DNA from: Selaginella moellendorffii
Taxonomy: Eukaryota; Plantae; Lycopodiophyta
Length of the DNA: 64,000 nucleotides
Direction: 5' to 3'
Assembly: GCF_000143415.4 (NCBI RefSeq)
Contig: NW_003314375.1
Coordinates: 372,001 to 436,000, forward strand
The notes beneath the pieces are model-generated. The model had not been told where the DNA came from. It searched no databases and saw nothing but the letters and a program-made list of their open reading frames with translations. Positions 1-60,020 of the stretch are shown piece by piece; the stretch's first letter is position 1, and each line of letters starts with the position of its first letter. The translations under genes and the position numbers were made by a program.

Positions 1-59
1 AGTATGAGCGCAAAATCAATCAGATAGAAAGAAACATTTTTCAGCTTGTCGTGTCTCAC

Positions 60-3404: not shown

Positions 3405-3808
3405 GCTCGCCTCTCTAGATCTTCCCCTTGCTCGCCCCTCTTGCCTACAACATCTAACCCCGTTTTGAGGCGCGTGAGACCCTGCGACACCCAAACCCTA
3501 TCTACCTAGCTGGGCTGCCCGCTCCGGGAGGCACGAGGATTTGTCCATTCTTGCCAGTTGAGAGAAGAACAACCCTTGCTCCTCCTCAGTGGCTACTTAT
3601 CTACTTTACCTTTTCTTCTTTACTTTTTCCTGTGTGTTATATAGGATATATATGTTTTGTTATATCATCGGTCATGTGATGTCCATGTGAACAAATCTGA
3701 CTGCCTCGCCTCACTTGTATTATTATCCATCCACACCCTCTGCCATTGCCAAAGGGAATCGAATCAAAGCTCTGCGCTCGCTCGCTCAACAAAATCCGCC
3801 GCCCCCAC

Positions 3809-33837: not shown

Positions 33838-34320
33838 TTTAGTTGAGGCTAAGGCTTCCAATATTTATTCTTTGGGTGCTCTTCACTTCGTTTATCCCAC
33901 TGTGGTCGCCAAAGTGGAGAATTACAAAATCACCTCTACAATGATTTTGTGAATCCTCTCATATCTAAACTAAAAACAAACATAAAAAGGAAAGAAATAT
34001 TTAGCCATATGTTGTTGCAAAGATGTTGATGCTGAGATTGATGTGCATCTCACAGCCTTGATCCCCAGAAGGCAATGAGTAAGATAGGCATGGAAGAGAA
34101 GAGTAGATGTTGAGCAAGTGGAGTGTATGTTATTATGGCCAAGGATATAAAAAGATAGAAAGGGGATAGGTCTGGCATGCTATCACCAGCCTATATAACC
34201 ACTACATGCCCAGTCATCCAAGTCAGGAATTTAGACCGGGAAAAATCCTGATCTCAATTCCTAACTCAGGAAATTCCTTTGTGCGAAAATCACAATGCAA
34301 AAATGCATGTACCTTTCTAC
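33838..34320 (+). repeat. ~480-bp dispersed direct repeat, copy 1 (copy 2 at ~60021-60500)
   Basis: tttagttgaggctaaggctt...aaatgcatgtacctttctac is near-identical in both places. Confidence 0.9.
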
Positions 34321-37177
34321 TCTTTGACAACTAGAGTTGAGCAGCTCCTGCAGCTCAAGCTTCCATTGTGGTGGTAGTAGCAGCTGTGGTGTTAGCCTCT
34401 AGTTCTTCCTCGTAGTCCTCAAGCTTGTCGCGAGTGTAGTTCTTTATGGCAGTCTCGAGCAGTTGTAGTCGGGCCTTGAGCTCCATGTTCTCTTTGGTGA
34501 GGTGGGCATTCTTGAGTTGGTACTGCTACGCTAACTTGAAAGATTCTCAACAGGTGTTTGGTGTTGGGAGTCCATGAGCCTGTATAGTGCGAAGGATACC
34601 CTTTACCTGATCAAGTTCCTAAGCCATGCTCGCCATCTTCTCCTCGTGTGGGCGTGCCAAAACTTTGTGAAAGAAACTCTCCATGCCGTCCCGCATGTAC
34701 ACCACCATGTTGGAGTTATGGTACTGCTCCAAGAAGTTTGTAGGCATGGGACGGATCACTTTCGGTTGCTGCTGCTCCTGATGATGATGCTCCTGCTGCT
34801 CTGGATTGTAGTGGTGGCGCTTGTTCACGCGCTCGTGATGAAATTGGTGTTGCATTGTTGAATGAGGCAGCTGCATGTTGTCGGCAGTGGTGGTTGGAGC
34901 AAATATCTGGTGCGGCTCAGATGGCTGCTGTAGCTCAGTTGGCTGCTGCAGCAAAGATGGCTGCTCCTCAGCATACTGGTGTGGTGGAGACGGCTGCTCA
35001 GTAGGCTGTGGCAGCGAATGTTGGTGCTGCTCGACGGGCTGCAATGGTGGAGGCTGCTGCTGCTGAGGCTAGTGTTGCTCAGTAGTTTGCTCCTGCTGTG
35101 TGGGTGGTTCGTAAGAAGTGTTGTGCCCCGGCTCAACGATGGTGGATTTGTAACCGTTTCAAGATTTTGAAGAATATCCTGCGTCAGCGAAATGTGATCG
35201 TCCACTGAAATTGTTGTCACTAGAGACAGAGATGGTGCCGGTTCATGCGGTGGTGATGGTGGCAAATCCGGCTGCAGTGTGCTAGGAGGTTGCAAGCTCT
35301 TCATTGATGGCTGAGTAGGTGCCAAACTTTGCTGCCGTTTTATTTTGGAGCTAGAGGTTCTTGTTGGTTGTTGTCGTTTTGGCACCTCATGCTGGATTGT
35401 TTGCACATCACTGTCGTCACTGTCAATCTGTGGAGGCGCAACGTTTCTTCAGCCTTGTCCCCGTGTCTTTCTTTGTGGAGTTGCTGCTGTCTTTCACTGG
35501 ACCTTTTTCTTCTCAGTGTTCATCAAGTGGTCTTTAGCTTGGTGCTTTGAACTTTTTGTGGCTGCGTGCTGCGGAGGCAGTGGTGGTGGACTGTAGATCA
35601 CCATGGCTTGACTTCTATGCATGATGATTGCTCTAACATATGGTAGTATTAGGGTCTTCACACATCTCCTCGTGTTAAGATCTGCTGTCACCTTCTTAAG
35701 TTCCCTACGAAACTTTGGAATCACATATCCTGCTAAATACACTTTCTTCCCAGCTTGAAGATCCTCGTAGATGAAGGCCACTGATCTGCTCACTGTCGTG
35801 GCAGTCTTCCAAAATTCCAGGTTGAGAACAAGGAACTTGAAGATTTTGTAGAGCTTGTCCTTGACGTTGGAGAATTGCAAACTAAGTGCCGAGTTGTAGC
35901 TCTCAGGATCTTTCATGATGTCGTGACTTAAAGCCCGTGTGCGTGGAGACCGCTGCTTAGTAGGCTGTAGCAGCGAATGTTGGTGCTGCTCGATGGGCTG
36001 CAATAGTGGAGGCTGCTGCTGCTGAGGCTGGTGTTGCTCGACTCGGCAACTTGAATTTGTTTATCCTCTTTGTCGTACTTATTTAAAATTGTTTCTAAAA
36101 TTTGTTGCTGTTGTTGTTCTAATTTCTCTTTTACTACCTCTTCCTTTTTCACTTCTCAATTCTTTTGTCGAAGATCTCTTTCCCGGATCTTGATTGGGTC
36201 TGGTTTCTATTTGTACATTCAGTTTGCTAAGTCTTCTCAACTTGAATGTTGAGGTAAGTTTCCTGAATTTGTGTTTTGCTTAAGTGATCTTTTGTAAATT
36301 GTTGTTCTTCATAGATTGCAAAGTCAAGCTCTTGTGTCTTGAGTCTTCTGCAAGTTTGGTTTTGTTGTTTAAATGTGAAGTCAAGCTCTTGTGTCTTGAG
36401 TCTTCAATCAAGTTTTTCTTTCTTTCTCGATTCTTCCCGAGTTTCGTCTCGAGGTCACTTTCCTAAGTCTAGCTCAGGTAAGGTCTTGTATTTGAAAAAT
36501 CTGAAGTAAGCACAATTTTGTTTGTTGAAAGGAGGTCTATTTTGTCATAAATTGATTGATTTAGCTGTTCACCAGTAAATTTGGATACTACTCACCAACT
36601 TTGGAATCGAACAGGTATGCAAACAATTGCAATTCTCTCTAGTAGTCCAATCTTGAACAATTTTTTTAATCTTTTACATTGTGTTGGTTGTTTTGGAATG
36701 CGAGCTCTCACTATGAGCTTTTGTGTTTCCCAATCGTTGGTAAGATTTGCAAATGTTGAATACAGCAGTGGTTGTATTTTTAATGTCCTAATTCTTATAT
36801 ATTTCTTGTCTCAAGTGACGTCCACACGTCAAAGTTTGGTTTCCAACAGATTTTTTTTGCTTTAAGCCTATGTGTGCGCAAATCTATCCAGTGCGCTTTT
36901 CTCTATGGTCAATTTTGTGATGGTGCATTTCCCTGAGGCTGTTCTTGCCGGTTTTGTTCTACTTCCCTTTGTCATATTGCATGTTCTCTTTCACGATCAG
37001 AGTCGATCGCTTCACGAACTTCCCAAGGTATAATCTCAATTAATATTCTTGCATTATAAGTTTGTAACCTTGACACAGGATCTCCTAAAATACTCTTTAA
37101 AATGTTGAGATTTCTTGGTCGCACTCTTCCTTGTTGGTTGCGAGTGTTATGTATTTCTAAGTTGGGGTTTCGATGTT

Positions 37178-37690
37178 TGTCGCGAATGTGACTTCGGGTA
37201 TCGAAAGATACTTGTCAGCTAGTCCTTATAGACACTCTCTCCTTACTGCCACGATGGCAGAAGGTCGGTACTGCTGGTTCCCTTTATTGGCCCCTCTTAT
37301 CCAAGTGTTAGTAAACTGGACTTAGCATCTATACTTGGCCGGATGAGTATAAGGACGGAATTCTTAAGTGTCTATTTGGCCAAACATACTTGGCCCGGCT
37401 TTTTAGTTCTCTTTTGCTCTATCTTGCACTGGCTTGGCAAGAACCCTCGCGTATTGAGACTAGTCCCTCAATATCGCCGGATGATAGCTTACTGTGCCTG
37501 CCAAACACCCTCGCTATCACGCCCTTTGTGTTAGTCTCATTTTGGTCCCAAATGCTATTTAAGGAAAGTGTCTAGATTTGCTCATTTGGTATGTTTACAA
37601 AATGTAGAGGTTGGCCTGAACACAATGGTGTTCGTCCTGTGTCCAAATTCACAATCTAAGGCCATTCCATATTTAGTAAGTTTTGAACTT
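37178..37690 (+). mobile_element. LTR family A, left part; interrupted by the DNA transposon and resuming at 56185
   Basis: Starts TGTCGCGAATGTGACTTCGGGTATCGAAAGATAC, matching 15132 on the minus strand. 37560-37690 plus 56189-56240 together match the uninterrupted reverse complement of 14780-14605. Confidence 0.85.
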
Positions 37691-39299
37691 AAGCTCTATT
37701 TCGTTAAAGTGGGATTTATTCAGTAAAATGGGACTAGGTACAAATTTTCAAGTATTTGAAAATGACGTGAAATTATATGTTTTTTGTCCAGGGGCTAGAC
37801 ATATCTGGGGCATGGTGACTAGCGCGGTGACTTTGTGTCCAGACTGAGTCCATCTGGTTGTATAATAAATCTCATTGTCAAGGTGAACAAGCCGAATCTG
37901 AAGCTAAAGAAGAGCAATGGCATGCGTGCACACACTATTTGTTTGTTCATTGAGCATGTGGTGAGCTTTCCAAGATGAACGTCATTCCTATTAGCCAGAC
38001 ATATAACTTAATGGTGAGAACATTTAGATATTATTCAATGTTATCTTTTTCTAACGAATCTAATTGTGAAGGTGTAGCAAGAGGCATTGCTAGTCTGGAG
38101 AAGTCATTTAACTCATTTGACCCTTAGTGTATTTTCATGAAACTAAATAACATTCATATTATTAAGGAATTTCTCTAGTACCTTTTTTTTACAACATAGA
38201 GGCTTGCATTTCTTTCAAAGGTGATTTAGTAAAAGGCCTGAGGGCACATGCCATTCTATTTCTTAGACCGGTATTAAGATATACTAGTGCAAAGGGAAAA
38301 AGGTATTTGGTGATCAAGTAAATGGCATGAGGGCACACGCCATTATAAGCCTAAGCGCTAGTGGACACCTCCTTTTTGGTACTCTCAGCGGTACTATCAT
38401 CCTTCTCCGGGTCAGTTGTTTTGCTTTGGATTGTTGTCTCTGACGTTACTGGGGCGTTCTCGATAGTTGTTAATGTTGCCGTTTGTTCAGAAAAATGATC
38501 ACCTAGAGTATAGTACGGGGAGTTTGGAAGACTTATATATTCTACATCTTCACCTATCTCCTTCTCCGTCTCCTTTTCTGCCTCACTTACAGATTTTGTG
38601 CTTGCCATGAGAACGCTCTTCACCCTAAAATATGGAGTTCGTTGTGTTATAAAAGGAAACCAACACACACGCTGCAAGGGAATGATGGTACATAAAGCAC
38701 GTAAGCCCACAATATGGGTTTATGTGCCATTAATATGGGCCACACGCCATATTATTAGATTTATGCACGTGTGATTGGTAAATGCATATGTCACATCATC
38801 TTTGTTTTACCTCACACACTATATCAGGCCTAATGAACCATATCACATGTGCGCACATGCTATATATATGGAGAAGTATTATGCAAGGATAGAAAAATTC
38901 AATGCATGATTGTGGAGAGCAATGGCATGAAGCCACATGCTACATAACATTTTAGAGAAAGAATTAAAATAGAAACATGCAAACAGTACTGAGTGGACCA
39001 AGACTTAGAAGTGCACAATTGAATGAGGTATTTCTAATAAATATTTCACTCACCTCATATAGGAATGGCTACCACTCTCAAATGGCGTATCGCCTCATGC
39101 CATCACCTCGCAATTTGTTATAACAATCCGATGAATTCATATTCGGCTTGTTCACCTTGAACTTTAAGTAAGATTTGCTAGAACAACTAAGAATTTATAC
39201 TTGTTATTTGTATCATCTCACCTAGGAATGGCGTAAGGCCACATGCCATCACGCCTCCTCTGATTCAGATTCGGATTGTTCACCTTGAAATAAAATACA

Positions 39300-42146
39300 T
39301 TAGAAACTTAGTAAAGGAATATTAATGAATCTCACCTTGAACCCGGTTATGAATGCTCTTGCTGCATCTCTTGCATGTTCTGGCAAAGTGATGGTGGCAC
39401 TCTGCTTCCGCATCCAACCATGCACAACATTATCCACCGATATGCTCATGCTGGGATCCCTTGGATTTAGCACCCATCTCTTTTCTAGGCAATCCTTCGT
39501 ATATCCGGAACTTGGCTTGAACCACTCCACAGTTACATTGAAGGAGTTAGTTTCCGCGTCCTCCTCTGCATCAGTGATGCAGCGCCCCACCCATATCATT
39601 TGTTTTTTATTACTGGGTCTGACAAGCACGACCATTCCTTTGTAGACCTGTACTGGATTGAATGCTGAATCCGGCTTCTTGTTCCTCGGCCCACAATAGT
39701 GATCCTCAACATCATTATCTGTCACTGCATTTCCAGAGGACATTGTTCCGCTACTATCTGGTGCTCTGGGTTCTGGCCAAAAGGACTCTTCCAATTCTTC
39801 ATATACAACCGGCCCATTTTGGATAGCAGATATAATCTTCTCCCAGTATTTGAGCAAAGGCTTGCACCTCTGAAAATAGGATTCTCCACTAAACACCAAC
39901 CCCCTCTTCCAGAAGGCAATATGTTGTCTAATCCCGGCCACTATACTTTCCTGGTCTTTGAGTCCATCCGGGTGCATCGGCCGTGGGGAACCCTGAGGAA
40001 TCATAGGTTCCCCAGTTATGGGATCTCTCTTGAAGAGTTCAATGCCGTCCACTGGCAGCCACATTGTGTCCCATTCTCTCATCTTGTACCTTATCACTGG
40101 AGCACCGTCACGCATGCTGAAATGAAACTGAAGAGGCTTGGAGTGGCCAATCAGCGTTTTGGATCCGTCCCTGATGTAGCCTCTTACAAACCCCTTAAAG
40201 TCTGGAACCTCTGTCACAAGTGCAGCTTCAACAGTGCCTTTGATGCAATTTTGGAATTCATCGTAGAGTTGTGGGAGGGTGAGGACATTGGATCGCCGGA
40301 GGGACTCTGCCAGGTGACTGAACATGGCATCGACGTCTTCATGAATGTGCCCAACCATGAGAAAGCCAAGTGTAACCGTTTCAAATATGCCTTTGGCAAC
40401 AAGCATCGCCAAGTATGCGAAGACGTACATGTTTTTGTTCTCACTGCCAGCATTGTCTGTTTGGAGCAGAAGATGGGGTGGAAGGCCACATCGGCCGCAA
40501 GAACTTCCTTGAGATTCTGCTTCGTTTGGATGAGGCTGTGCATTCACTGGGTGACCAGCCTCGTCGGAATGGCATGAGGCCTCACGTGATAACCCTACAA
40601 TCTGACGGCCAACATATTCACTGGGATGGCATGGGGCCCCACGCGATACTGCAAGCCTTTGCTCCTCCTCCAGCTGAACCCTGTATGGGGTTCGATCGAC
40701 AAGGGCCTTATGCAAGGGTTGGCCATTCAGCTCAGTCTGCGCACTTTGCAGAGACCTTAAGTATTTTGCTAGGGACGCAATCATCATGTTTGCACCCCCG
40801 CCACCCCATAGAGGTACAAAGAAGTTCCCATAGTTCTGGGCACCATGCCCATGAGCGATTATGCCAAACAGAGACACAAGCAGCTGCATGGATGAAGAGA
40901 TTGCCTTGGGGGCAGGATTGAGTTGAGGTAAGCATGTCTTTTTCTCGTCCATTTTGTCGTGGATGATGCAGAGGTAAGAGTCAGGTCTCTCCATGGAGAG
41001 AATCCTGTTATGATAATATGCAGTCCTACAGCTTCTCTGCTCGATGTTGTGGTCGAGTCGCCTTCTAACCAACGTCTCTCGCTCTTGAGCGATGCAAGAA
41101 TTCTTCGACAAAGCCATTTTGATAGCAGTGCACTCGTCACACTTTGAAAAGCTGGAGTACTTTCCTATACTCACATCCCTGAACCTGTTGCTCCACAATC
41201 TACTAAATCTAGATTGGCTCAACTTCCTGTAGCCATTACTCTGGAGTTCCCGATTCACATCTTCCAATATGGCCCCCTTGGTATACATGGAAGGGAGAAC
41301 TCATTGGGTGTCTCGTGTTCCATCTTCCAAGAGGCGGGTTTTATGTGGTTGCTGCTCGCTACATGTCTCGACAAACCTCTTGAAGATTGCCTCTCCATAT
41401 ACAACATGACCTCTGGTTTTGTGCGTACCGTCGTTCCCATGGACTACCTGTTGAACCCTTTGTTCCTCGAACTCAGTTTTGATTCTGTAGAATGTGGTTC
41501 GAGGGACTCCATAAATGATTCTCCATGCCTTCATGCAGACCAAACCCCTCTGGAAGACCATGCCCCCCACCTGATGTTCTGAAGCATCAAAAGATGACCG
41601 TAATGCCTCATACACAAAATTGCGAGTTGCCTTCCAGGACAATGTCTTATATCTTGCTCTCTCCTCTTCAATAGCATCCCAATCAGCATGTTGACAGCAC
41701 CTCCTCTTGCAACAAGCAACTATTGAGACCATTCGAACCTCCATCGCCATTTTCTGCCTTTTCGGTTCGTTGCTCAGATCCCTTTGGCTGCGCTTTAGGA
41801 AGGTGTACTTTCTTTTCCCATGAAGAGATGTTCTGTCATCAGTTGTAGTGGTGTTTGATTGTGAATCCTTCACATTCTCAAACACTAAGTGCCTCAATTT
41901 CCACCACACAATGCTTCCAATAGTTAGACTGTTTTCTTCTGTGTCAACAACCTCTAAAATCGCAACTCCAATATCATCCCAGCCCAATTCTTGATTAGCA
42001 ACCGCATCTCTTGGATCGACAACTGTGGCTAAGCCCTCAGCTACCACCTCCCCCTCGGGGTTGTTTAGAAACACCTTTGCCTGAATCCATGTAGCACGGT
42101 CCTTAAGATCCACAGAGGGAACATGCGTCGCACTTGCGGAGGCCAT
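39300..42146 (-). pseudogene. Sola1-like DDE transposase with one in-frame TGA at 41303-41301; further small 3' exons probably extend to ~38351
   Basis: ORFs 42146-41301 and 41288-39300 are in the same frame. Motifs: CCKRRCC, VCMKAWRIIYGV, FSKCDEC, LCIIHDKMD, LLLQTDNAGSENKN, FLMVGHIHEDVDAMFS. A 5' acceptor tttcag precedes the ATG, and there is a donor aag|gtgag near 39335. Confidence 0.8.
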
Positions 42147-42509
42147 TCTGAAAGTGCAGAAAAGAAGTTAAGACCATACAAAAAATGATTGGAGAATGGC
42201 CTAAATCATAACATACCAAACAACCTCAATAGCATGAGGCCACATGCCATTATTCAAACATGCTATTGACACCCACGTGAAATTTCGCATTCACAAAATT
42301 GGCATGAGGCCTCATGCCATCTTGATATACACACAGCTGCAGGCAAGTAAAAACATACATGACAATACGCTAGCCATGAAATTGCAAGGGCCCAAGATGG
42401 CATGTGGCCTCATGCCATTTCTAAATGTGGTCCTAAGCCATTCCATGGTGAACATACCAGGAAGCACAAGTGCCGAATATCAAGAGGAAGCGGTAGCCAC
42501 ACCAAAGAC

Positions 42510-42722
42510 AGTGCCGCTCGCAACACCGCAACTACTCGTAGCGCCGCTCGCAACACCGCAACTGCTCATAGCGCCGCTCGCACAAACTGCCACTTGCATA
42601 AACTGCCGCTCGCAATGGCGCTCGCAATGCCGCAACCGCTCGTAGACGCATAAACCACAGCTCACAACGCCGCTTACACAAGCAGCGCTCACTGCGCTCA
42701 GCGGAACCAAGAACACGGCGCA
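42510..42722. repeat. CG-rich tandem repeat (30-bp GCGCCGCTCGCAACACCGCAACT... units) upstream of the transposase
   Basis: gtgccgctcgcaacaccgcaactactcgta / gcgccgctcgcaacaccgcaactgctcata / gcgccgctcgcac..., followed by degenerate copies. Confidence 0.8.
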
Positions 42723-43441
42723 CAAAAATGATAGACCTAGGAATGAGTTCGAGAATTCAAAAATAACACACGCTTGAACGTCACATCAAATCCTCTGACA
42801 AACCAGATCTTATGATTCCTCTGACAAATTTCAAACTGAGTAGCTTCTAGACTTTGCTGTCGGAGGTTGAACTTTGTCACATCATGTCCTTGCCTCAATC
42901 CAGCTGTGCCATGTCAGTGATTCGAACTTTGCCATGCCATGTCAGCAATCCGCGCCAAGATTATTCGCCGTGTAAAGGAATAATTATGCTGTGTGTGTAC
43001 GTCCATTTATGGCAATATAAGGCCACACGCCATTCAAAGAATAATGCTAGTCGAGCATTTTTTGGTGCATTTTTGGGTTCAAAATTGCATGAGCCCACAC
43101 GCTATAAAGTTTACCTGTACCAAAAATAGAAACATCTTTATTTACTTGGGAATTTAAGTGGTTGAGGCATTTTTAAACTTACAAACACATGCCCTACTTA
43201 CATTCCTTTGGTTGCTTAAAATTCAAAAATATTATAAACCTTTCTTTTTGCATTTTCAATGTTTTCAATTATGGTTTTTGATTTTCACAGGACCAGCCTA
43301 GTAATCTATTTGCATCCCGTTATGTTTATAGCTAGCTTTCGTTTGTCCCCTTCGCTAGCCTGAGATACATCTGCTCGGCATCTGCCTTTTACAGCATTTG
43401 CCCAGAAAGGGCATCTTTCTTCACGCAGCATTTGCCACATG

Positions 43442-43467
43442 TTTAGGGTTTAGGGTTTAGGGTTTAG
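43442..43467 (+). repeat. Interstitial plant telomeric repeat (TTTAGGG)3-4
   Basis: tttagggtttagggtttagggtttag. Confidence 0.9.
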
Positions 43468-46400
43468 CAATTCAGTAGCTTGATAAACATGCAAATACAG
43501 AACTTGATGCAAAATCCTTTGATATGTCACAATGCCCCTAGGACCATAAACACATTTCAATAGAGAGGGTCCTTTCATTTCATAACTCCTTACGTAGATC
43601 TTGGTGAAACCAGAGTTAGTGAAGTTGGTTTCTTGTGATCCCGCATCTGATTGTGATGTCCCTTTGCAGTGTCGATGGAAAGGTCAATGCACACCAAACT
43701 GTAGAATCTTAGAGCAAAATAACGGTCGGATCTATGGCAAATGCCCCTGAAACATTGTAAGGCTCGTGTGGTCTCATGTGGTGTCCGATCGAGATGCTTC
43801 TTTGCAGGGTCATCAAGAAGGACATTGTATACCATTCTTTATTTAGCTGAACATCTGGCATTTTTGGAAATACAAGATGCTTTGGAATATCCAATCATGC
43901 ATGGTATAAATATAGCGAGGGTATTAAATGATATCCCAATCATGATCTTTCTTTTGGATTTCGCGTGCATGCATTCCGAGGAATGATGACGTTGCGGATT
44001 TCTTTTGGATTTCACGTGCATGCATGCGCGCGGCGATCCAGAAATTAATGGTGGCGCCCAAGTCCGAGGAATGATGACGTTGTGGGATTACCAACCATCG
44101 TGACATTTCGCGCGTGTGAGGTTAGGTTTTGCATCGTACTCGCGCTCGCACACTCGCGTTCGCATCGTGCTCCCACTCGCGATCACGCTCACATTCGCGC
44201 TCATCTACCTTCTCTACAGGTTTCTCGTGTGCATCAGCGTCCACTCGCGCTTGCATCACACTCGCGCTCGCATCGCGCTTGTGTGCATCAGCGTCCACTT
44301 CAAGACACACCCAGTTTGTAACTTCGCCGCCAACTCCGCCGCCCACTCCGCCACCCACACGCAGCCCACTTGGCGTCCCGAGAGATTTCAGCGCCACTCT
44401 CCAACTGTAAGTGGCAGAGTAGCCTTGCTGCTACGATCCGCTGCACACACAGTGCACATTCGCTAGCGAGTCCGACCTCGATTGTCACGCCTCCATTCGG
44501 CTTCAAATGGTAAGTCTTTTAGGCCAAGTAGAAAATGGCATGAGGCCACATGCCATTCAGTAGCAACATTGGCATGCACCGATTGGGCTCTCGAGTGCAG
44601 TCCGGTTACAGATGGCGTGTAGCCTCACGCCATCTTAGGATGCAGCCTCAAGACATCTGATGCAGTGGTGAATGGCGTGTGGCCTCACGTTATTTCCAGC
44701 TGCTAGCTTTTCATCTGTCAGCTCTAATTGTTGTGCATTTCTGAACAGGCGAGGAATTGCGTTCTTCTTCCAGCCATTGTCAATGTGGATGCAGAGAAGG
44801 GAGAGGAGCTCACCAGTTGGACTTTCGGGATGGAAGGCGAGGATCTGAGGCTATACAACACAGATGGTGGGAGAAAAGAATGCATGGGGATCCTCATCCA
44901 AGTGACAGACACTCCATGCAGTTCTATGCAAGAATATGGACTAGCACTTGTGGTAGAGACAGCGTCCGCCTTCAAGATCCACCTTGCACATCCTAGCGGC
45001 TTCCCGGAGGGGGGCAGCGGCTATGAGGAATTCCTAGAGGGAGCTAGGGAGAGGTTGTCCAGGAGGCCCACAATTTCAAAGACGCTGCGGGTCTATGAAG
45101 ATCACATGGAATCCACGGACCTCACCTACGACGATGTTTAAAAACTATATTCCAACATTGAGCCGTTGAGAGTGCCTCCAGTTCGCGAAGCGAAGGGGCA
45201 GGGGGGTCGATCTAGAAACTACCCCGAAGCAGAAAAGGGTGGTCAAGCTCAAGCCGACGTCTGACTCTCCTACTCCAAAAAAGAAGCTACTCGGTGATGC
45301 CATTGCCTCGGGTTCGAACACTACACCCACCAAAAAGAAGAGCCGCAAAGAGCAGAAAGAGCAAGAAGAGGCAGCAAAAATCGTCGCAGATAATAGTACT
45401 TGTTACTATTCCAACAAAGTATATACAATCGACGTGAGCCGTATCGACATCCAAAGCAAATACAACCACAGGCTAGTATCTGATGAGTGGGTGGAGAAAC
45501 TTAAGCAGAAGATGCTGGCAAGTCCAGTAACACCCGACATCGCAGACGTGATCCCCTACTACCGAACAATGAAGGGCAAGACGAGGTTTCCAGACTTGAT
45601 CAATAGGAAGGTGTTGGACGATCAGAACATCCGGTTCTATGCCGTCTCCGGGCAGCATTCTAGCTTGGCGATGCAAGAGATAGTTGTGGATATTATGGTG
45701 GGCGAGGAGGTGAAGAAAGTCTTCAAGACAAGAGTTGTCTGCCTGATAAAAGGCAACTCGCCCCTCCGATCTATCATATACATCTCCCACGCGCAGAATG
45801 TCAAGCAAGAAACATGCTACAAATCAGGTCTGCACGAGACATTGGCACGAACACGGAAGCTCTGGGTTCAACTAAAGAAGCCACAAAAACCAGGACAAGG
45901 ACGTGCACTAGCAACTAGCGCCTGGCAGGTAAGCCTCGTTGCATGTGGCATAGCATGTGGCCTCACGCCATTTCCATTGCAGGAATTCTCGAGTCTTCTC
46001 TCGAAAACACTGGGGGTCAATGACACACTCAGCATCCATAACATTCTACTCGCGACAAAAGTTGTTTTTGACAAATGGGTAGATGTGCTGAGGAGGTACC
46101 ATGACGGGGAGTTGCTAAACTCAATGGGTGTGGAGGACGGCCGGAAGCCCAATGATTTGAAGCTCAACGCCTTGCGTTTCTCGCGGTCTCTAGACGACGA
46201 CGACCTTCTGACAGTGGCTAATGCTCTTCTACGTGGTGAGGTAGTCTTCAACAAGACCAAAATGACTCCCGGCCATATTGTGACATACGAGGACTTGTGC
46301 ACGACTCTAAGAGCTCGTGCGCTATTGAAGGATTGGATCTTCGAGCAAGTGGCCGTGGAGAGGGTGAGCATCGACACCACGCAAGAGATGATGGAAGAGC

Positions 46401-49400
46401 TGGAGTTGTCAAATGAAGACATCGACGAGTACTTGAAGGGGGCCCCCAAGTTCATCGATCTGCTGCGGGATGCCACGAAAAGTAAAGCTGAGAAGTTGGA
46501 TCAGTATCCAAATTTCATTAAGAGGGATGTCGACCGCCGGCTTCAGAAACAACTCGACCCCGCAGCAGAGGCCTATCAAGAACCTTACCGGGTATACGTG
46601 AATTCGGATGAGGATCAAAGGTGGAGGAGCATCGTTTCCCGCGGAGATGAGCAGGTCAAGAACATCTTTTGTGTGATGGACTTCACAAACGAGGAGATCA
46701 CTCATGCAGACGAAGTCAGCTCCATCATTGACTTAATGGTGGGACTTGCAGAGGTGGAATCTTCAGTCCACTATATGATCTACGACTCCGAATCCTATCA
46801 CAAGTTCTGGAAGGCCTTGAACGAGGTGAAGGCTCGGTTGAAAGGCAAGGAGATGCGGGAGATCCATGGGATAATGGCTAAGAAGAAGATACCGACGAAT
46901 GTTCGCATCTTCACACTCGCCCTTGTTATTGGTCCTGCAGCAGAGTGGGACTGGAGTGACTTCCCAGCTTCGTTCGACAAGGCCGATCGAATTGATCTGA
47001 GGGAGGTCAATTTACCCGTGCCTGAGGAACTGAAGATGGCTATGGAGCTTTCGAATCCAGAGAAAGCTCCAGGTGCAGCATGGGAAATGCTCAGCTGGGT
47101 CTTCAACGCAATAGCGGGTTGGTCACCTGCTTCCGACTCCAAGGGCAAATGCGTTGTCGAGTACAACTGCGGCGGACTATTCTTTCGAGCCGCACTACTC
47201 AAGGGTGTCCTGTGTGTTGCGGTGACAAACTCCATTGAAGAGGTGACTTCAATGGAGCATATAATTACAGTTGCCAAAGAAAAATAGTATCTTCTCTGCG
47301 AACCTGGTGAGTACGCACTTTAAGTTTAAATGTTATCTCACAAGCTCTGTATGCAGGAGCGTGGCCACCCCCAGATGCTGAAACGGCGTTAACAGCTACT
47401 GTTGAACATACCCATGTTGGGCCGAGCTCACAACCTGCACAAGGTAAGGTCACGTGAGGCCTCATGCCATTTTGATTATAGATCGTTGTGAATATTCAGA
47501 CACGAGGACTGAAAAGCGCACTGGTGGCGCGTCGAAGAAGGACAAACAGACAAGCAATAGGAAAAAAGGAGGTACAAATTATATTTGCAATGGCGTGTGG
47601 TCTCATGCCATTCCTTGCAGGAGACACTTCTTCAAAGGCAAAACAGGCAAGCACCAGCCAAGCTCAAACTGATAGTGGTCATAAAAAGCGAAAGCACGTT
47701 GGACAGTCGTCGGGATCAGAGGCGTTTGATTCGAAAAGGAAGAAGGGCAACGAAAAGATGATAGGTAATGCCTCGCGGTTATGGCGTGTGTGCTCATGCC
47801 ATTCATTGCAGATCAAGGGCTGAGTGAAAGGAGCCAGTCACCACCTCCTGACTCACATTCCTATGGCAGACTCCCCTTCCCCAATCTCAATGGAGAGGTA
47901 CAATGGATGAGGGATGCTTTTCAAGTCAGGGCCACGTTTTTCTCATCTCGTCGTCTTCGAAGGGTGCAAGAACGTGCAGAAACCATGTTAAGATAGTCGG
48001 GTGAGGATACGGTCCTAGGTCACGCACTAAAACAGGCTATGGATGTCTTGTATTTTGAGATGGAGACTCGGCCAGATGATTTTCCCAAGATGGTCCTGGA
48101 AGAACAAGCCATCCAGCCTGAGCAGCCTATGGAAGAAATGCAGGAGGGGGATGAGGAGCCAGAGAAAGATAATGAGCAGGAAGAGCAGAAGGACGAAGAG
48201 GAGGACAAAGAAGAGGAGGACGAAGAAGAGGAGGATGAAGAGGACTTGGATGGTCCTCACAATGGTGACGATCACAATAACGACGACGACGATGATGACG
48301 ACGATGGCCAACCTGAGGTGGCCAAAGAGTAGCGGAGGAAGGTCATACAAGACAAACCATCAGGTAAATAATAGTACATCCATTCCTAACCTTTTACCAT
48401 TTCTAACATTGTCCATGTAGGTCGCAGAGCAAATGGTAAGTAGAGATTATTCAGTTGAATTAAGATACAAACTCTAGCCTTTAGTGTCGAGGAAGGATAG
48501 TGCCAAGCAAGGGTCGAAACGTATGTCCAATCCTTCAGAATCATCAGTGCGCCCAAGTGATATCGGTCCTAGTTCCTCAATAGCAGTTGATAGTAAATAC
48601 AGTATAGTCGATTCAATATGCTAATGAGTTTGTTTTTAGTAGCCAGTAGGGAGGATACCATCTCAATCGAAGGGAGATATTTGGACATGCATATGGATCC
48701 GCCAGTGGACTCTACTTGCCTGCAAGAATCATCAGAGCTGGTGGAGGCTACTATCCATATCAACGCCAAGCAAGCTGACCACGCTCCACTTGATGCTACC
48801 CATACCACTAAGTAAATCTTGTCCACGTATCCAACTGACGGTGACCAGGCGCCATTGGACCCGCATGAGGCCGCCCCAGCCGCCGAGCCAGTCGTATCCT
48901 CATTTCCAACGGACTCAACGTGTGCCCAATCGTCTGACTACGCGCCGTTGGAACCTCCCTACACCGCCCCTGCTGCCTGTTCGGTCATGTCCACTTTGCC
49001 AACGGAGGCACCAGCTAAAATGGCGTGTGATCACACGCCATCGGAACCACCCCATGCCACTGTTGAGCCAGTTGTATCAGAGTCTATAGCTGAAATGGCA
49101 TGTGCCCACACGCCATCGGATGCGATTGACCCCACATTGCAGAGGAGAGTATTTCCGCCCTTCACGTTTCCTCGACCAAAACCCTCTCAACGACCATCGG
49201 GAGCACCATTCGCTAATATTGTAGATGGTAAAATTGACTTGTACCATTTTTTATGCTGACGCATTTTATTTCAGAGTCACGGCGAAGGTACTGTATCGTT
49301 TTTTATCTGAACGGTGTCCTTTTCTCCCATGAGCGTGGCTCGTCCTCGAATGTCACTGCACCCTCCAAAGCCTGCGGTCGCAAGTTGGTCAAAAGAGACA

Positions 49401-49915
49401 GATTGACATTAATCACACGGGAGAAACTGCTGTCAGGAATCCCCCAATTCTTGCCACATTCTTGACTCTCGCCGGATTCCTGACCTGCAGACCACATTCT
49501 TGACTCTCGAGACATTTCCCTATTCCTGACTCTCAAGACACTTCCCGATTCCTGAGTCTCGAGACACTTCCCGATTCCTGAGTCTTGAGCCACATTCCTG
49601 ATGATGATGTGGCGCCTCCTCGACCTCAACTGTATTTAGGCCGTCCTCGATCCAAGAGTGGTGGAGCTTCATCAACCTATAGTATATATAGGTTAGCCTT
49701 GTTCCATTTCTCCACAATCTGAATCAACACCAGTCTAAGGCCTCTTCTTTGTTTTCACTAGCTTTTTCTCTTTGTCTTTAGCATTTTCCAGTCTTGATCT
49801 TGTTGGGGGTCTTGACAGTTTGATTCAGATTGTGTTTTTTGCTTTTCTTTTAGCTCGTTTTGATTATTTGATTGCCTTTGTCTTTTTCCCCCTTTTCTTT
49901 TCTTTCTTCTTGCCA

Positions 49916-50886
49916 ATGGAGTCTCCAAGCCATCCTGATTTCTTTGCCGAAGTCCTTGCAAAAATCCAGTCTGAGAATACCGAGCTGAAGGCGACCTTCT
50001 TCGCATGCAGCAGGAGCTTGCTTCACTTTCGGCTCAAGGATCCAGCAAAGTTCTTGAACCGAAGGTGAGTTTCCCGGCGAAATTTTCAGGCAAGCGTTCG
50101 GAGCTTCGTGGATTTTTGAACCAAATGGAGCTGATCTTTGCACTTCAACATCGGCGGTACCCCACTCCCGAGTCTCAAATCGGCGCGATTGGGACGTTGC
50201 TCGAGGGTGCAGCTTTGTCATGGTTTTCTCCTCTTTTGGAGAAGAGCATGAAAGGGGTCGTGGTTCCGGAGCTGATGGATCTTCAATTGTTCAAAGAGAA
50301 GCTCGAAACATGTTTTGGCGAGACGGATCGGGTTCGGGCTGCTACCACAAAGATGAGACGTCTCTCTCAGGGGTCTCGTCCTGCCTCGATCTACGTTGCA
50401 GAGTTCCAACTCCTTGCCTTGGACACTCAGTGGGATGAGCGGGCCCTGATTGACCAATTTCGCTTCGGCCTCAACAACGGTGTCAAGGATTTGTTGCTCA
50501 CCATGGAGGATCCCAAGGACCTGTCGGACGCCATCAACAAAGCTGTTCGATGTGACAATCGTCTCTTTGAATGTCGTCAGGAAAGTCGCTGCGCCGCTGT
50601 TTTTCCGTCCCAAACTCAGGAATCCCAGCTTGAGTCTTCGGGGCATAGTCCTGAACCTACTGCTCCGGTCCCGATGGATATTTCTGGTACTCCCCGACTC
50701 ATTAGAGGGAAGTTGAGTCCTACTGAGAGGCAACATCGAATATCTCATAATCTTTGCCTCTACTGTGCTGATCCTAATCACAAAGCAGCTGTGTGTCCCA
50801 GGAAGCCTCCCCGATTGCTCGAGTTCACTCTGCCTCAAAGTCCACTTCTGTTGCAGTCGGGAAACGACCCTGTCCAAACAGAGTAG
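49916..50886 (+). pseudogene. gag: gag (frameshift near 50005)
   Basis: PAKFSGKRSELRGFL, LEGAALSWF, QGSRPASIYVAEF, PVPMDI, and the zinc knuckle CLYCADPNHKAAVC. Confidence 0.9.
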
Positions 50887-53800
50887 GAGCTGTCTGTTTG
50901 GACTCCCCAAATAAAAATCACTTTTCTTCCTTATCAAGCTCCTCACCACCTTTCATCAAAGCCACCACCAATTCCCGCAACTTCCGCGTCCCATGTCTCC
51001 TTTCTTTCACCGGACAATCAGGAATCAAGGCTTTGGCGCTACTGGACTCGGGTGCAACTTCCTGCTTCATGGACACAGACTTTGCTGCCCGACATCATGT
51101 TCCTCTTTCTCCTACCATACGGGATCTGAGGGTTGAAGGCATCGGCGGGCATTTTGTGTCTCCATCTTCTGGACTTAGGGAAACATTGCCCGTTCGAGTA
51201 CACATCGGGTCCACCGTCACCGATATCGCCTTCAACATCATCAACAACAAGTCCTCCTCTGTGGTGCTCGGTCTTCCTTGGTTCCAACTACATCAGCCTC
51301 AGATTTGTTGGAAGGACTTACAGCTCATCTCTCCCACATCACCATCTCCCACGGCTTCCCTTGATGTTCATTGAGTCCGAATCAGGAAACGTTCCCTAAA
51401 CTCAAGTCGGGGTTCTGTTCCTGACTCTACGAAGTTTTCATCCTCTTCTTTTTCCTCTCTTCCATCTTACATTGGACAGTATCCTCGTCTCATCATTCCA
51501 TTTAGTCATACCCCTTCTCCTATCTCCACAATCACTATGAAAGAACTCCTTCATGAAGAACCTCTTTTTCTTTTTGCTTTGCATGTTTCTCCTATCAGTC
51601 TTCCTGAGAAGTATCATGATTTTGGGGATGTGTTTGATAAGAAAAAAGCTAGTGTACTGCCTGTTCATCGGCCTTATGATTGTCCCATTGATTTACAGGA
51701 AGGAGCGTCACCTCCGTGGGGGCCTATCTACGGGTTATCCCCGTCCGAGCTTAAGGCCCTCAAAGAGTATGTGGATGAGAACCTTGCCTCGAGCTACATT
51801 CAGCATTCGCAGTCCCCGGCTGGAGCGCCTGTCTTCTTTGTCAAGAAGAAGGATGGGAGCTTGCGGCTAGTCATCGACTACCGAGGTTTGAACAAGGTGA
51901 CTGTTCGGAACCGTTATCCGCTGCCCCTGATCTCGGACCTGTTGGAACGCCTCGGCGGTGCCCGCTTCTTCACCAAGATCGACCTCCGTGAAGCATACAA
52001 CCTGATCCGGATCCGGCCTGGTGATGAATGGAAGACTGCATTCCGAACCCGCTATGGCCACTTCGAGTACACTGTCATGCCATTTGGCTTGACAAATGCT
52101 CCAGCGGTTTTCCAACACATGGCGAACGACATTTTTCGGGAGTTTCTTGATCAGATGGTGATCGTCTACCTCGATGACATCCTCATCTACTCAAAAACTC
52201 AGGAGGAGCATGACGAACATGTTCGCAAGGTGCTAGTGAAGCTGCGAGAACACGGCCTATACGCGAAGCTTGAGAAATGTTCCTTTGATCAGCAATCTGT
52301 GGAGTTCCTTGGGTACATTGTCACTCCTGAGGGTATCACGATGGATCCTGCTAAAGTCAAGACTATTCTCGAATGGGAGCCTCCACAATCAATGTCGGAC
52401 GTTCAGGTTTTCCTTGGCTTCGCCAACTTCTACCGCAAATTCATTGATCACTACTCTGACATTGTCCTTCCTCTCACACATCTCACTCGCAAGGATGTTC
52501 CCTTCTCTTGGTCTGCTGCTGCCCAGCAGGCCTTCGACACACTCAAGGCGGCCTTCAGTTCTGCTCCTGTCTTGATCCATGCTGATTCCTCACAACCTTT
52601 CTTCATCGAGGCTGACGCCTCCGACTTTGCCATTGGTGCTGTGCTGTCTCAACTCGGAGCGGATCACGAACTTCATCCGGTCGCTTTCCATTCTCGGAAA
52701 TTCCAGCCTGCGGAGATCAATTACGAAATCCACAACAAGGAGCTCCTTGCCATCGTGGATTCCTTTGGAGAGTGGCGCCATTTCTTGGAGGGGGCGAGCC
52801 ATCAAACAACAGTTTGGACGGATCACAAAAATCTCGAGTACTTTGCCACTTCCCGAGTTTTAAGCCGTCGTCAAGCAAGGTGGGCACAATTCCTGAGTCG
52901 GTTTGACTTTGTTATCAAGTACAGACCTGGAAAGTTTCAAGGCCTTCCTGATGCTCTTTCAAGGCGCTCCTATCTCAGTCTCAGGCCTGGTAATCCTGCC
53001 TTCGATCAACAGGATCAAGTTATCCTCGGTCCTGATCGGCTTCAAGTTATGGCAATTTCCCTGGCCCCTCAGGACTCCTCCTTGATGGATGCAATCAGAA
53101 ACGATCTTCAATCCGATGATCTCGCTAGCAACATTTTCCCCCATCTTCAGGCTGGACACCCAGTGACTCCGGACTGCCGGTGATTTGACGAGTTCGAGTT
53201 CTTAGATGGCTTATTGTACCGTGGGGAGCAGCTTTACGTTCCTGAAGGTGATGCTCGAAGGTTGGTCTTGATGGCGTGCCACGATAGCCCGACTGCTGGT
53301 CACTTCGGCATTGCGAAAACCTATGAGCTAGTTGCACGGGACTTTTGGTGGCCTCACATGGACGACTACATCAAAGCTTTTGTTACCTCCTATGACACTT
53401 GTGCCCGGAATAAGGTACCTCGCCACCTTCCTTCAGGTTTGCTTTGTTCCCTTCCGGTCCCTTCAGGTCCTTGGGAATCCATCTCCATGGATTTCTTGAG
53501 TGATCTTTCGAGTTCTGGAGGCTTCAACAGCATTTTAGTCGTGGTGGATCGCTTCACAAAGATGGCGCACTTCTTGCCATGTACCAAGGAGTTTTCGGGC
53601 GAGGACATGGCAAAACTGGTATTCAGGGAAATTTTCCGACTTCATGGGATTCCTACAGATGTGGTTTCGGATCGGGGGCCTCAGTTCATCTCTCATTTCT
53701 GGCAACGGTTTTTGCAGCTGCTTGGAGTGAAGGCCAACCTCTCTTCGGCATATCATCCTCAAACTGATGGGCAGTCCGAGCGAACGATTCAGACGTTGGA

Positions 53801-54632
53801 ACAATTCTTGAGGTGCTTCATCAACTATCATCAGGATAACTGGTTCGATATCCTTCCCCTTGCTGAGTTTTCCTATAACAACTCTGTTCACTCCTCTCTT
53901 CAAGTTTCCCCCTTCTTTGCGAACTCTGGCCGAAATCCCCGATTCAATCTCTCACTTCCTTCTCCATCTGAATCCTCTCGTTCAAATCCCCACTCTGAGG
54001 CATTTATCTCCAACCTCAAGGAAATCCACAACTCCATCTCCTTCCACCTCCATCGTGCTCAGGAATCTCATAAAACGTTTGCCAATGTCCATCGTCAGGA
54101 TTGTCCCCCTTACAATATCGGGGATAAAGTCTGGCTCCTCAGGCGAAATATCTCCACCACCAGGCCCTGTCCAAAACTCAATTTCAAACGCCTTGGTCCT
54201 TTCCCTATCACTGCCATCATTAATCCTGTCACTTATCGCCTTGCACTTCCCTCCTCATATCAAATTCACCCTGTTTTTCACTCCTCTCTCCTTGAGCCTT
54301 ATATTCCTAGTCCTATTCCAAATCGGGTCATTCCTCCGCCTCCACCAGTGCAGCTCGAGGATGGGTCTGAGTACGAGGTTCAGGACATCCTTGATTCCAA
54401 GATTTCACGGTCTAAACTCTACTATCTGGTGGACTGGAAGGGTTACGGACCTGAGGAACGCACTTGGGAACCTGCGGACAACCTGATTCATTCTCCTGAC
54501 CTTGTTCAGGACTTCCACCGCCGCTATCCTTCTCGTCCCAGTCCTCATTTTTTTTCTCCCTCTCCCATCCCTCGCCGCTCATCTCATCCTCCTCTTCGTT
54601 CTCGTTCACATCCTCGTTCCACTCGTTCTTGA
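50860..54632 (+). pseudogene. pol: pol (protease, RT, RNase H, integrase, chromodomain) with in-frame stops at ~51372 and ~53181
   Basis: A GGGAAAC slippery site lies at ~50859. Motifs: LLDSGAT (PR), YLDDILIYS (RT), EADASDFAIGAVL (RH), HDSPTAGH...SDRGPQF...TDGQSER (IN), YEVQDILD...YLVDWKGY...TWEP (chromodomain). Confidence 0.93.
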
Positions 54633-56184
54633 GGAGGGGGTGCTGTCAGGAATCCCCCAATTCTTGCCACATTCCTGACTCTCGCCGGATTCCTGACCTG
54701 CAGACCACATTCTTGACTCTCGAGACATTTTCCTATTCCTGACTCTTGAGACACTTCCCGATTCCTGAGTCTCGAGACACTTCCCAATTCCTGAGTCTCG
54801 AGCCACATTCCTGATGATGATGTGGCGCCTCCTCGACCTCAACTGTATTTAGGCCGTCCTCGATCCAAGAGTGGTGGAGCTTCATCATCCTATAGTATAT
54901 ATAGGTTAGCCTTGTTCCATTTCTCCACAATCTGAATCAACACCAGTCTAAGGCCTCTTCTTTGTTTTCACTAGCTTTTTCTCTTTGTCTTTAGCATTTT
55001 CCAGTCTTGATCTTATTGGGGGTCTTGACAACTGCGGGATCTAATAATGACCATGCGACACTTAAAACAGAGGGCCAGGTTCAATTTGCAATTGGGAGTT
55101 TGGACATCCATGATGCGCCACAATGCATTAACGTTGCTACAGATGATGCACGATCAGACGTGAATAATATTACCATTTGACTTTCTCCTAACGCAAGAGG
55201 ATTGCTTGACTATGGTCCATGTGAGGGGTAGCAAGCCCATCTTCGTCAAGCCAGAGGCTGTAGTGATGAACCGGACTGCTAGGTCAAGTGAAATCCTCAT
55301 CATCGATGACTCGCCGATTAAAACTGCAGCAAACACGCACACATATGCAGTGCACCCCATTTCTTGCAGTATGGAAACTAGGGAGAAGAAACCATATGTT
55401 CTGGGGGACCTTGCAAAACGGCTTGGAGCGATGGTGATAGAGAACCGGCCAGTCCAGGAGGTGGCTGCAGAAATCAACCAAATGGCAGATGGAACGGTAT
55501 ATCAGAAGCCATTTGATCAGACAGACACCAGTCATCATTTATGGCATGTATATTGTCTAGCCAAGCACTATCCGCATCTCCATAATCTGCTCAACCGGAT
55601 GGGTTCTTCGACCACTGAACATGAGCGTGGACGTATTAGAGAAGAGATGGCATTACTATTGGGTTTAAATCCTGATAGTGTGGAGAGTGATGAAATTCCA
55701 AGATTATTGTATAGGCGTTGGAGGCAAAAAATAACAGTCTGAGATGGCATGTATTTATTTAAAATTGTAACTTATTATGGCATGGGGTTCCATGCCATTG
55801 TATTAATATTAAAAGACAATTCTTTGAGAGGATTTGCATTATACTAAAAGTGTTACAGCATGTTATTGGAAGTCTACGAAGTTGTTTTATTAATAAGGGG
55901 AAAGTAAAGATTGAATGAGGACTTGGGCTCCACCTAGACTCAGAGCAACTGAGCCAATATTAAAAGGATGGAAAGAAATTGAACGACGATGACAAGGAGA
56001 AGAGAGAGGTGAAGCAGTGGCAGGGGGAGGAGAAGTGATTGAGTAGACATTTCCTTGTTTAAAATAAAATGGCATGTGCCTCAATGCAGTTGAATTTCGT
56101 TATATTTATATACTATATAAAGGTTTGGAAACCTTATTTTACAAGTGGGATAATGACAATTCCCACTTTAACGAAATAGAGCTT

Positions 56185-59711: not shown

Positions 59712-60020
59712 GTGTTCTTTATGTTTTCATGCTTGTTAACACTTGCTTGCTCTAATTTCTTATCGAAGATTCTTCGAATATTCTGATGTGTAGAATATTC
59801 TTCATCTTCAACCTCTTGCCAAGAGGCGGTTATGGAAGATGCTTGGACTTTCTGAAAAGTGGGCAATCACTAGATGTTCGTAGTCTTCAAACACTTGGTT
59901 TCTAGCATAATTGCCATGCTTCTTGCTGTAGATTTTTGTTGTTTTTCTTCTTTTTAGTTTTGTTTTCTTCTTTTTGTCCCTTTTTGATTTTTCCCTCGAT
60001 TCTTTACTTTGGCTTCTTCT

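What the first reader, a model, noticed from the sequence alone, without database searches (positions are those of the whole stretch)
45929..47811. Cargo-gene micro-introns each contain one palindrome at a fixed distance from the 3' splice site
Seen: introns 45929-45982 (54 nt), 47444-47481 (38 nt), 47572-47620 (49 nt) and 47765-47811 (47 nt) each hold one 22-bp palindrome ending 9-11 nt before the exon. Its right half supplies CTCAT/CTCAC at a plausible branch-point position, so the introns are little more than donor + palindrome + acceptor. Inference, three options: introns let the element place protein-binding sites inside a gene at no coding cost; the hairpin hides the branch point and gives autoregulated splicing; or these are introner-like introns that spread by copying.
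Basis: partly seen in the sequence, partly recalled or inferred. Interest (0 to 1): 0.8.

Follow-up and report, generated by a model that had tools for sequence, protein, structure and literature searches.

The report
Transposon palindromes doubling as branch points
A plant jumping gene scatters 23 copies of one DNA palindrome along its length, likely as docking sites for its own accessory protein, and four copies sit in likely micro-introns so short that the palindrome is predicted to serve also as the splicing branch point, which would explain their fixed position.

Summary
The four GT-AG spans exist, each with an imperfect palindrome ending 9-11 nt before the exon. They are 4 of 23 copies spread over a 12.9-kb Sola-like DNA transposon (24-bp TIRs, 4-bp TSD) whose second gene has a ParB-like fold. 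Intron 1 is supported by a 15-18-residue gap in 3 of 3 spanning homologues. Introns 2-4 are supported by reading-frame logic only; no RNA junction was seen.

Five palindrome-free introns of the gene are as short (47-57 nt) and four place a branch-type A at -15 to -17. The palindrome's CTCAY puts one at -16/-18, so the fixed distance likely reflects double use in tiny introns. Related elements carry different palindromes, mostly outside coding sequence; the few checked inside introns are far from the AG. Not introners; a hairpin forms in only 2 of 4.

The element type is published (Ectocarpus Sola1-1_Ec32) and this scan noted it earlier in six findings on other genomes; intronic binding motifs are known from VANDAL/VANC. 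Only the overlap with the branch site looks new.

The parts
37691..56184 (.). Sola-like DNA transposon, about 12.9 kb without the nested retrotransposon
   Evidence: 24-bp perfect TIRs and ACTT on both sides; sibling contigs change flank at 37691; empty paralogous site at 14610-14700
37691..37714 (+). left terminal inverted repeat
56161..56184 (-). right terminal inverted repeat
39250..42146 (-). DUF7869 transposase gene (one stop in this copy; inferred short last exon; palindromes at 40569 and 40626 lie in its variable insert)
   Evidence: Pfam E 1.2e-40; alignment; 3' end read
42148..42457 (-). inferred 310-nt 5'-UTR intron of the transposase gene with three palindromes (42229, 42299, 42397); donor is a guess
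44507..55744 (+). cargo gene model: ParB-like domain, helical region, degenerate N6/N4-methyltransferase-like region, long low-complexity region, NIF/FCP1-like end; ten inferred introns; broken in this copy
44510..44748 (+). inferred first cargo intron (239 nt) with three palindromes (44535, 44612, 44672) and its own CTAAT at -22
45929..45982 (+). intron 1 (54 nt, phase 0, in frame and stop-free), palindrome 45950-45971, branch-type A at -18
   Evidence: gap of 15-18 residues in P0033, P0043, P0045
47307..47356 (+). inferred palindrome-free intron (50 nt, phase 1), CTCAC A at -17
47444..47481 (+). intron 2 (38 nt, phase 1), partial palindrome 47449-47470, branch-type A at -18
47572..47620 (+). 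intron 3 (49 nt, phase 1), palindrome 47590-47611, branch-type A at -16
47765..47811 (+). intron 4 (47 nt, phase 1), palindrome 47781-47802, branch-type A at -16
48364..49274 (+). four more inferred palindrome-free micro-introns (48364-48420, 48436-48484, 48593-48639, 49228-49274) and two exonic palindromes (49020, 49095)
37917..39249 (.). seven palindromes between the left TIR and the transposase stop (37917, 38233, 38322, 38842, 38922, 39082, 39228)
43084..43105 (.). palindrome between the two divergent genes
55777..55798 (.). palindrome behind the cargo stop
49431..55030 (+). nested Ty3/gypsy chromovirus-type retrotransposon splitting the last cargo exon (not part of the system)
   Evidence: Pfam gag, RT, RNase H, integrase, chromo; LTRs 97.9% alike; ACTGC on both sides

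Best explanation
The 22-bp palindrome occurs 23 times across a Sola-like transposon and is likely a double-stranded DNA site for an element-encoded protein, most likely the ParB-like cargo protein; four copies lie in likely micro-introns of the cargo gene, where the palindrome's CTCAY is predicted to serve as the branch site. Shown: the element's ends, the motif's spread and its avoidance of conserved coding sequence, a ParB-N-like predicted fold, the homologue gap at intron 1, an open frame through introns 2-4, and the -16/-18 register. Inferred: the site is kept wherever it costs no protein function (UTRs, introns, next to stop codons, variable inserts). In a 38-54-nt intron a 22-nt site, a donor and a branch A at -15 to -18 barely fit side by side, so overlap with the branch site is the only placement at 38 nt and one of two at 47-54 nt; the fixed distance follows. 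Inferred function of binding: the protein loads on the sites and keeps the element transcribed or mobile against host methylation, as VANC does for VANDAL elements.
For: 23 of 24 motif copies lie inside the element, 1 weak copy in 51,169 nt outside. Density per kb: cargo introns 10.3, other non-coding 2.7, coding 0.5. Relatives use different palindromes: 6 copies in L009 (two in coding sequence, one 47 nt from the end of a 125-nt intron, one at the stop codon), 10 in L029, 6 in L001, against at most 2 in two control stretches; a 16-bp palindrome has 138 matches in 26 of 33 other loci against 1, 0, 0 in shuffles. The 99-nt GT-AG span at the intron-1 position of L056 lacks that family's motif. 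Cargo N-terminal model matches Noc, ParB, KorB (Foldseek best E 1.7e-4; Z 10.0, rmsd 2.9, 100 aligned). Branch register equals that of 4 of 5 palindrome-free micro-introns; the T that makes CTCAY is in 4 of 4 intronic and 6 of 19 other copies (P=0.024); arm mismatches left/right are 4/0 in the four and 9/11 in the other 19. All three stops of the spliced model behind intron 1 read CAG in the family's contigs.
Against: No binding data. The ParB/Srx fold also occurs in enzymes that are not DNA clamps (sulfiredoxin, SbnI, SerK) and no helix-turn-helix was identified. No spliced read was seen, and a contig of X1 (RNA only by guess) runs unspliced through the first cargo intron. Introns 2-4 rest on frame logic in a low-complexity region, and a 38-nt intron is very short. 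Geometry does not force introns 1, 3 and 4: upstream placements with a separate branch site were possible (10, 5 and 3 positions). Cargo remnants were detectable in only 8 of 80 relative loci. Statistics on 4 introns are weak and post hoc.
Confidence: 0.6

Rival explanations
1. Same layout and same double use, but the transposase (not the cargo protein) binds the palindromes, for synapsis or transcriptional activation.
For: Transposases themselves can activate cognate copies (bioRxiv 10.64898/2026.08.24.746577, start of abstract and passages); the 16-bp palindrome surrounds many relative loci where no cargo remnant was detected; a homologue has a weak helix-turn-helix hit (P0008, E 0.07).
Against: The copies are spread through the whole element rather than massed at the ends and do not resemble the TIR; the cargo has a fold whose bacterial relatives load at palindromes (their site preference is recalled knowledge).
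Confidence: 0.17
2. The palindrome acts in the pre-mRNA as a hairpin that hides the branch point, giving regulated or autoregulated splicing of the cargo gene.
For: Introns 3 and 4 fold into stems that pair the branch A and the acceptor region (z -2.53 and -1.72; 5 and 8 of 200 shuffles as good).
Against: Introns 1 and 2 fold no better than shuffles (z 0.45, -0.30); the left arm decays while the right is kept; 19 of 23 copies are not at a micro-intron branch position; relatives' motifs in the introns checked are far from the AG.
Confidence: 0.1
3. The introns are introner-like elements that spread by copying, or at least a motif-plus-acceptor cassette was copied between introns of this gene.
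For: Introns 3 and 4 are 90% alike over their last 31 nt (family D3); three of the four end in TTGCAG, none of the six other introns does; seven successive downstream introns are phase 1.
Against: 5' parts show no clear similarity (43, 96 and 799 of 1000 shuffles score as well) and the three exons before introns 2-4 are unrelated (56-374 of 500); lengths differ; intron 1's position is shared with distant relatives; no copy at up to 4 mismatches in 51 kb of other DNA with host genes. Whole-intron copying is unlikely; cassette copying is compatible with the best explanation.
Confidence: 0.06
4. Introns 2-4 are not spliced; the cargo frame ends or is processed otherwise, and the GT-AG frames around the motif are chance.
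For: No junction seen; no homologue covers this low-complexity region.
Against: Exons of 87, 90, 144, 552, 15 and 108 nt are all multiples of three between phase-1 sites; retaining intron 2, 3 or 4 raises stops from 3 to 11, 20 or 6; the remaining stops are CAG in family contigs; a Riccia homologue joins ParB-like, methylase-like and NIF-like parts in one protein.
Confidence: 0.07

Closest known systems
Sola1-1_Ec32 of Ectocarpus (PMC12477816; passages read; figures and supplements not seen)
   Same: Large Sola-type element with a second gene on the strand opposite to the transposase, carrying a ParB-like domain and an N4/N6-methyltransferase-type domain; proposed to bind and modify its own element.
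   Different: The paper's main text has 0 occurrences of 'palindrom'. Here the methylase-like part lacks the usual PPY motif (motif recalled; alignment), a NIF-like domain follows, and a family palindrome is spread through the element and into micro-introns.
VANDAL/VANC anti-silencing system of Arabidopsis (PMC5735166; passages read)
   Same: Accessory protein of a DNA transposon binds short family-specific motifs gathered in introns, intergenic and terminal non-coding DNA; motifs differ between related families.
   Different: VANC motifs are 8-9-nt, not described as palindromes, and build up as tandem repeats; different superfamily and protein; no overlap with a branch site in the passages seen; binding is shown there and only inferred here.
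Spm TnpA and AtMu1 transposase regulators (bioRxiv 10.64898/2026.08.24.746577; start of abstract and passages)
   Same: Element-encoded proteins bind clustered family-specific motifs and activate cognate copies.
   Different: Motifs are concentrated at the termini; here they are internal too.
Bacterial ParB/Noc/KorB clamps (PDB 7ol9, 6sdk, 8qa8)
   Same: Predicted fold of the cargo N-terminal domain; these proteins load at palindromic sites (recalled).
   Different: 9-14% identity; CTP binding, helix-turn-helix and sliding are untested; the fold is shared with sulfiredoxin-type enzymes.
Introner and introner-like elements (PMC3443670; passages read)
   Same: Short introns sharing sequence, some folding into stable RNA structure.
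   Different: [quoted passage not shown]

Membership tests
Sola superfamily | 4-bp target site duplication (PMC10741241) | tested here: met
   ACTT both sides; a 2-bp reading is possible from this locus alone, but sibling flanks start at 37691; empty paralogous site
Sola superfamily | terminal inverted repeats | tested here: met
   24 bp perfect
Sola superfamily | DDD transposase matching a Sola1/2/3 profile | tested here: inconclusive
   DUF7869 match and conserved acidic motifs; no Sola profile was run and the founding paper was not held; subgroup Sola1 is taken from earlier notes
Sola1-1_Ec32-type accessory gene | ParB-like domain | tested here: met
   predicted model, pLDDT 63.9; Foldseek and VIA-align top hits are ParB family
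Sola1-1_Ec32-type accessory gene | gene on the strand opposite to the transposase | tested here: met
Sola1-1_Ec32-type accessory gene | N4/N6 DNA-methyltransferase domain | tested here: inconclusive
   no Pfam hit in the window's protein; atlas leads at 0.77-0.79; homologue P0045 E 0.0072; low-confidence model gave nothing clear
active N4/N6 methyltransferase | catalytic [DNS]PP[YF] motif (recalled) | tested here: not met
   the strand that likely corresponds ends in DFT, DLR, DSA, DAT, DVT in the five aligned proteins that reach it; the correspondence is my reading
VANC-type anti-silencing system | family-specific motifs gathered in introns and other non-coding DNA | tested here: met
VANC-type anti-silencing system | accessory protein binds the motif and lowers methylation of cognate copies | not testable with these tools
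   needs ChIP/DAP-seq and methylomes
VANC-type anti-silencing system | VANC protein family, VANDAL (Mu-like) transposase | tested here: not met
   DUF7869 transposase and ParB-like cargo: it may work like VANC but is not one
U2-type spliceosomal introns | GT...YAG ends and branch-type A in the host register | tested here: met
U2-type spliceosomal introns | removal from RNA | tested here: inconclusive
   no RNA-record run covered the introns; homologue gap supports intron 1 only
introner-like elements | whole-length similarity between introns | tested here: not met
introner-like elements | presence in many unrelated host genes | not testable with these tools
   no genome held; none in 51 kb of the window

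The most novel reading that the evidence does not exclude
A eukaryotic transposon tiles itself, with no gap above about 1.6 kb, with parS-like palindromes that load its own ParB-type clamp, and four of these sites are at the same time the branch points of the clamp's own pre-mRNA, so that clamp occupancy on the DNA or the RNA stem in introns 3 and 4 throttles splicing: a feedback loop written in one 22-nt word read both as DNA and as RNA.
Probability: 0.12. Interest if true: 0.78.

Novelty: new variant of a known kind. Interest (0 to 1): 0.4.

Why it matters
The element offers a compact, testable candidate for a site-specific self-recognition system outside flowering plants: a ParB-like protein and a defined 22-bp site that differs between families. 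The four introns show how a protein site could be fitted into a gene by sharing letters with the branch point, which makes them a natural test of double constraint on one sequence and of the lower size limit of plant introns (38 nt). If the overlap has no regulatory effect, it is a neat but modest packing solution in a known kind of element.

Tried and rejected
No genome is held for this window, so sibling copies could be seen only as collapsed contigs (X2, X4).

No RNA holder was listed for 44400-49400. Seven of the 23 listed runs were laid (X1, X2, X4, X8 on 37500-49420; X12, X11, X10, X4 on 45850-48480). No splice joint appeared. X8 and X10 (RNA, about 12 in 100 of each read), X11 and X12 hit only a 40-nt stretch or the acidic repeat, bar one 190-nt X12 contig at 48197-48386. 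This says nothing on splicing.

Cargo searches: none at E<=0.001 among 7,994 candidates, none in PDB sequences, none in metagenome contigs (66 pattern matches, 0 confirmed), no Pfam hit. Of 12 hits, P0036 was not fetched and the repetitive P0040 was left out of the alignments. The motif has 0 exact matches in viral contigs. The transposase has no relative in viral or prokaryote contigs. The window's motif is absent from the 80 relative loci at up to 4 mismatches. The second structure model (pLDDT 54.8) gave no clear match. Rfam found nothing credible in 37000-49500.

Even spacing of the motif is weak: P=0.21 for single sites, 0.017 for post hoc clusters. Tandem duplication of exon-intron units found no support in exon sequence, bar one pair at 13 of 500 shuffles.

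Literature: 'DUF7869' 0 papers; ParB+methyltransferase+transposon+Selaginella 0; two searches listed nothing on a transposon site overlapping a branch point (listings only). One search used whole-word matching, so its term 'palindrom' could not match and the search tested only Sola+transposon+ParB. The founding Sola paper was not held. Supplements of PMC12477816 and of the bioRxiv preprint were not seen and may mention such motifs.
Full report
What is there. The window is plant DNA (phytochrome, NB-ARC-LRR and gypsy genes). Earlier notes on this genome call it Selaginella; I did not test that. The four spans have the stated coordinates, GT and YAG ends, and one motif copy ending 11, 11, 9 and 9 nt before the exon; self-complementarity is 16, 14, 16 and 16 of 22. 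The motif gives 41 strand matches against 0.01 expected. At up to 5 mismatches there are 24 sites: 23 inside one element and one weak site in the other 51,169 nt.

The element. It runs 37691-56184 with 24-bp perfect TIRs and ACTT on both sides. Sibling contigs change flank at 37691 and a paralogue at 14610-14700 shows the empty site. A DUF7869 transposase lies on the minus strand. A 4-bp duplication defines Sola (PMC10741241, passage); no Sola profile was run. Contigs of X2 and X4 cover the 11.9 kb laid in all 30 bins, mostly at summed depths near 75-270; they differ from this copy mainly by A>G and T>C, as expected if this copy has decayed by cytosine deamination (the cause is inference).

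The cargo gene. Its N-terminal model (pLDDT 63.9) matches Noc, ParB and KorB (Foldseek best E 1.7e-4; VIA-align Z 10.0, 9.2, 9.1), but also sulfiredoxin-type enzymes. The atlas gave ParB_N plus N6_N4_Mtase clusters as leads (0.77-0.79). A Riccia homologue has weak N6_N4_Mtase (E 0.0072) and NIF (E 0.01) hits. The same design, ParB plus methyltransferase opposite a Sola1 transposase, is described in Ectocarpus (PMC12477816, passages), and six earlier notes of this scan report it with palindromes in other genomes.

Are the spans introns? Intron 1 is in frame and stop-free, so the sequence alone cannot decide. All 3 homologues that span the site lack 15-18 residues there (P0033, P0043, P0045). 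Five other homologous ORFs lose similarity and end shortly after this point, three continuing with a valine as a read-through GT would give, and three begin just behind it. L056 has a 99-nt GT-AG span at the same place. For introns 2-4 the evidence is frame logic: exons of 87, 90, 144, 552, 15 and 108 nt between phase-1 sites; retention raises stops from 3 to 11, 20 or 6; and the three remaining stops (47285, 47994, 48330) are CAG in X4 contigs. No RNA junction was seen. No run on record as RNA covered the introns, and an X1 contig (RNA only by guess) runs unspliced through the first cargo intron.

The fixed distance. Uniform placement gives so tight a range with P=0.0066, or 0.036 if introns 3 and 4 are one event. 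The gene has five inferred palindrome-free introns of 47-57 nt; four have a branch-type A at -17, -15, -16 and -16, one has none. Small size is therefore a trait of the gene and probably the host; the intron lengths of S. moellendorffii cluster with fungi and differ sharply from other land plants (PMC6157073, passage). The palindrome's CTCAY puts an A at -18, -18, -16 and -16. With a branch A at -15 to -18, the motif must end 8-11 nt from the exon if it supplies the branch, or at least 18 nt away if it does not; the second option has 0, 3, 5 and 10 positions for 38, 47, 49 and 54 nt. Two signs fit selection on the right half: T at the variable position in 4 of 4 against 6 of 19 copies (P=0.024), and arm mismatches 4 left/0 right against 9/11. 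These are small, post hoc counts. In the two longer first introns, three copies each, the last motif ends 55 and 81 nt from the AG.

Relatives. The best 80 of 201 confirmed transposase loci fall into 43 groups. They lack this motif but several have their own. L009 has six copies: two in coding sequence, one 47 nt from the end of a 125-nt intron, one at the stop codon and two behind it. L029 has ten and L001 six. A 16-bp palindrome, derived from the same loci, has 138 matches in 26 of 33 loci from 32 groups against 1, 0, 0 in shuffles; the other 11 groups were not in that count. In L056 the copies within the cargo region cluster in the middle of a long AT-rich stretch, and the span at the intron-1 position has none. 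I did not build gene models for these loci. So the dispersed family-specific palindrome is the shared trait, and the branch register was seen only here.

Mechanism. The best reading is a DNA site for an element-encoded protein, kept wherever it is free of coding cost: 10.3 per kb in cargo introns, 2.7 in other non-coding DNA, 0.5 in coding DNA, where it falls in a variable insert and a low-complexity region. This works like VANC, which binds family-specific motifs in introns, intergenic and terminal DNA of VANDAL elements (PMC5735166, passages), though the proteins are unrelated. Binding, the binder and any anti-silencing effect are inferred. The hairpin model fits introns 3 and 4 only. The introner model fails on whole-length similarity, although introns 3 and 4 share 90% over their last 31 nt, so copying of the 3' cassette inside the element remains possible.

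Verdict. Observation largely real, framing too narrow; new variant of a known kind; interest 0.4.

Noticed in passing
window 39228-39252; L009 4150-4172; window 55742-55752: A palindrome copy abuts the inferred transposase stop codon in the window and in L009, and a half-site follows the cargo stop: the motif takes the first free position after the coding sequence.
   Followed up: partly
window 44404-44443: A 40-nt stretch just upstream of the cargo start is shared with an abundant RNA (about 170 partly fitting reads in X8). It looks like the 3' end of large-subunit rRNA (recalled); Rfam gave no match.
   Followed up: partly
L044:12058, L027:12039, L056:9834, L064:12074 and similar: In many relative loci the 16-bp palindrome about 2 kb behind the start of the transposase match follows CCCTAATC or a variant, ends in YAG-G or similar, and has GTATGT some 20 nt later. 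It may supply a splice acceptor there; if so, overlap of the motif with splice signals recurs in the group.
   Followed up: no
window 47307-48639: Seven successive inferred introns of the low-complexity region are all phase 1, with symmetric exons including one of 15 nt.
   Followed up: partly
window 42138-42140 and 38294-39237: Family contigs carry 244 more letters near the transposase start than this copy, and a minority contig skips 942 nt of the left arm, ending inside a palindrome.
   Followed up: no
window 49431-55030: Gypsy chromovirus-type insertion with LTRs 97.9% alike and a 5-bp duplication; it splits the NIF-like exon.
   Followed up: partly
window 27730-29091 / 58358-59711 and 33828-34320 / 60011-60502: A 1.37-kb inverted pair (86%) with 12-bp tandem arrays and a 493-bp direct pair (95%) surround the element: older nested repeats.
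   Followed up: no
window 56-10798: An NB-ARC-LRR gene lies next to a phytochrome gene on the minus strand.
   Followed up: no
L029:1-360: This relative's palindrome sits in 47-bp tandem units upstream of the transposase, like VANC-type tandem arrays.
   Followed up: no
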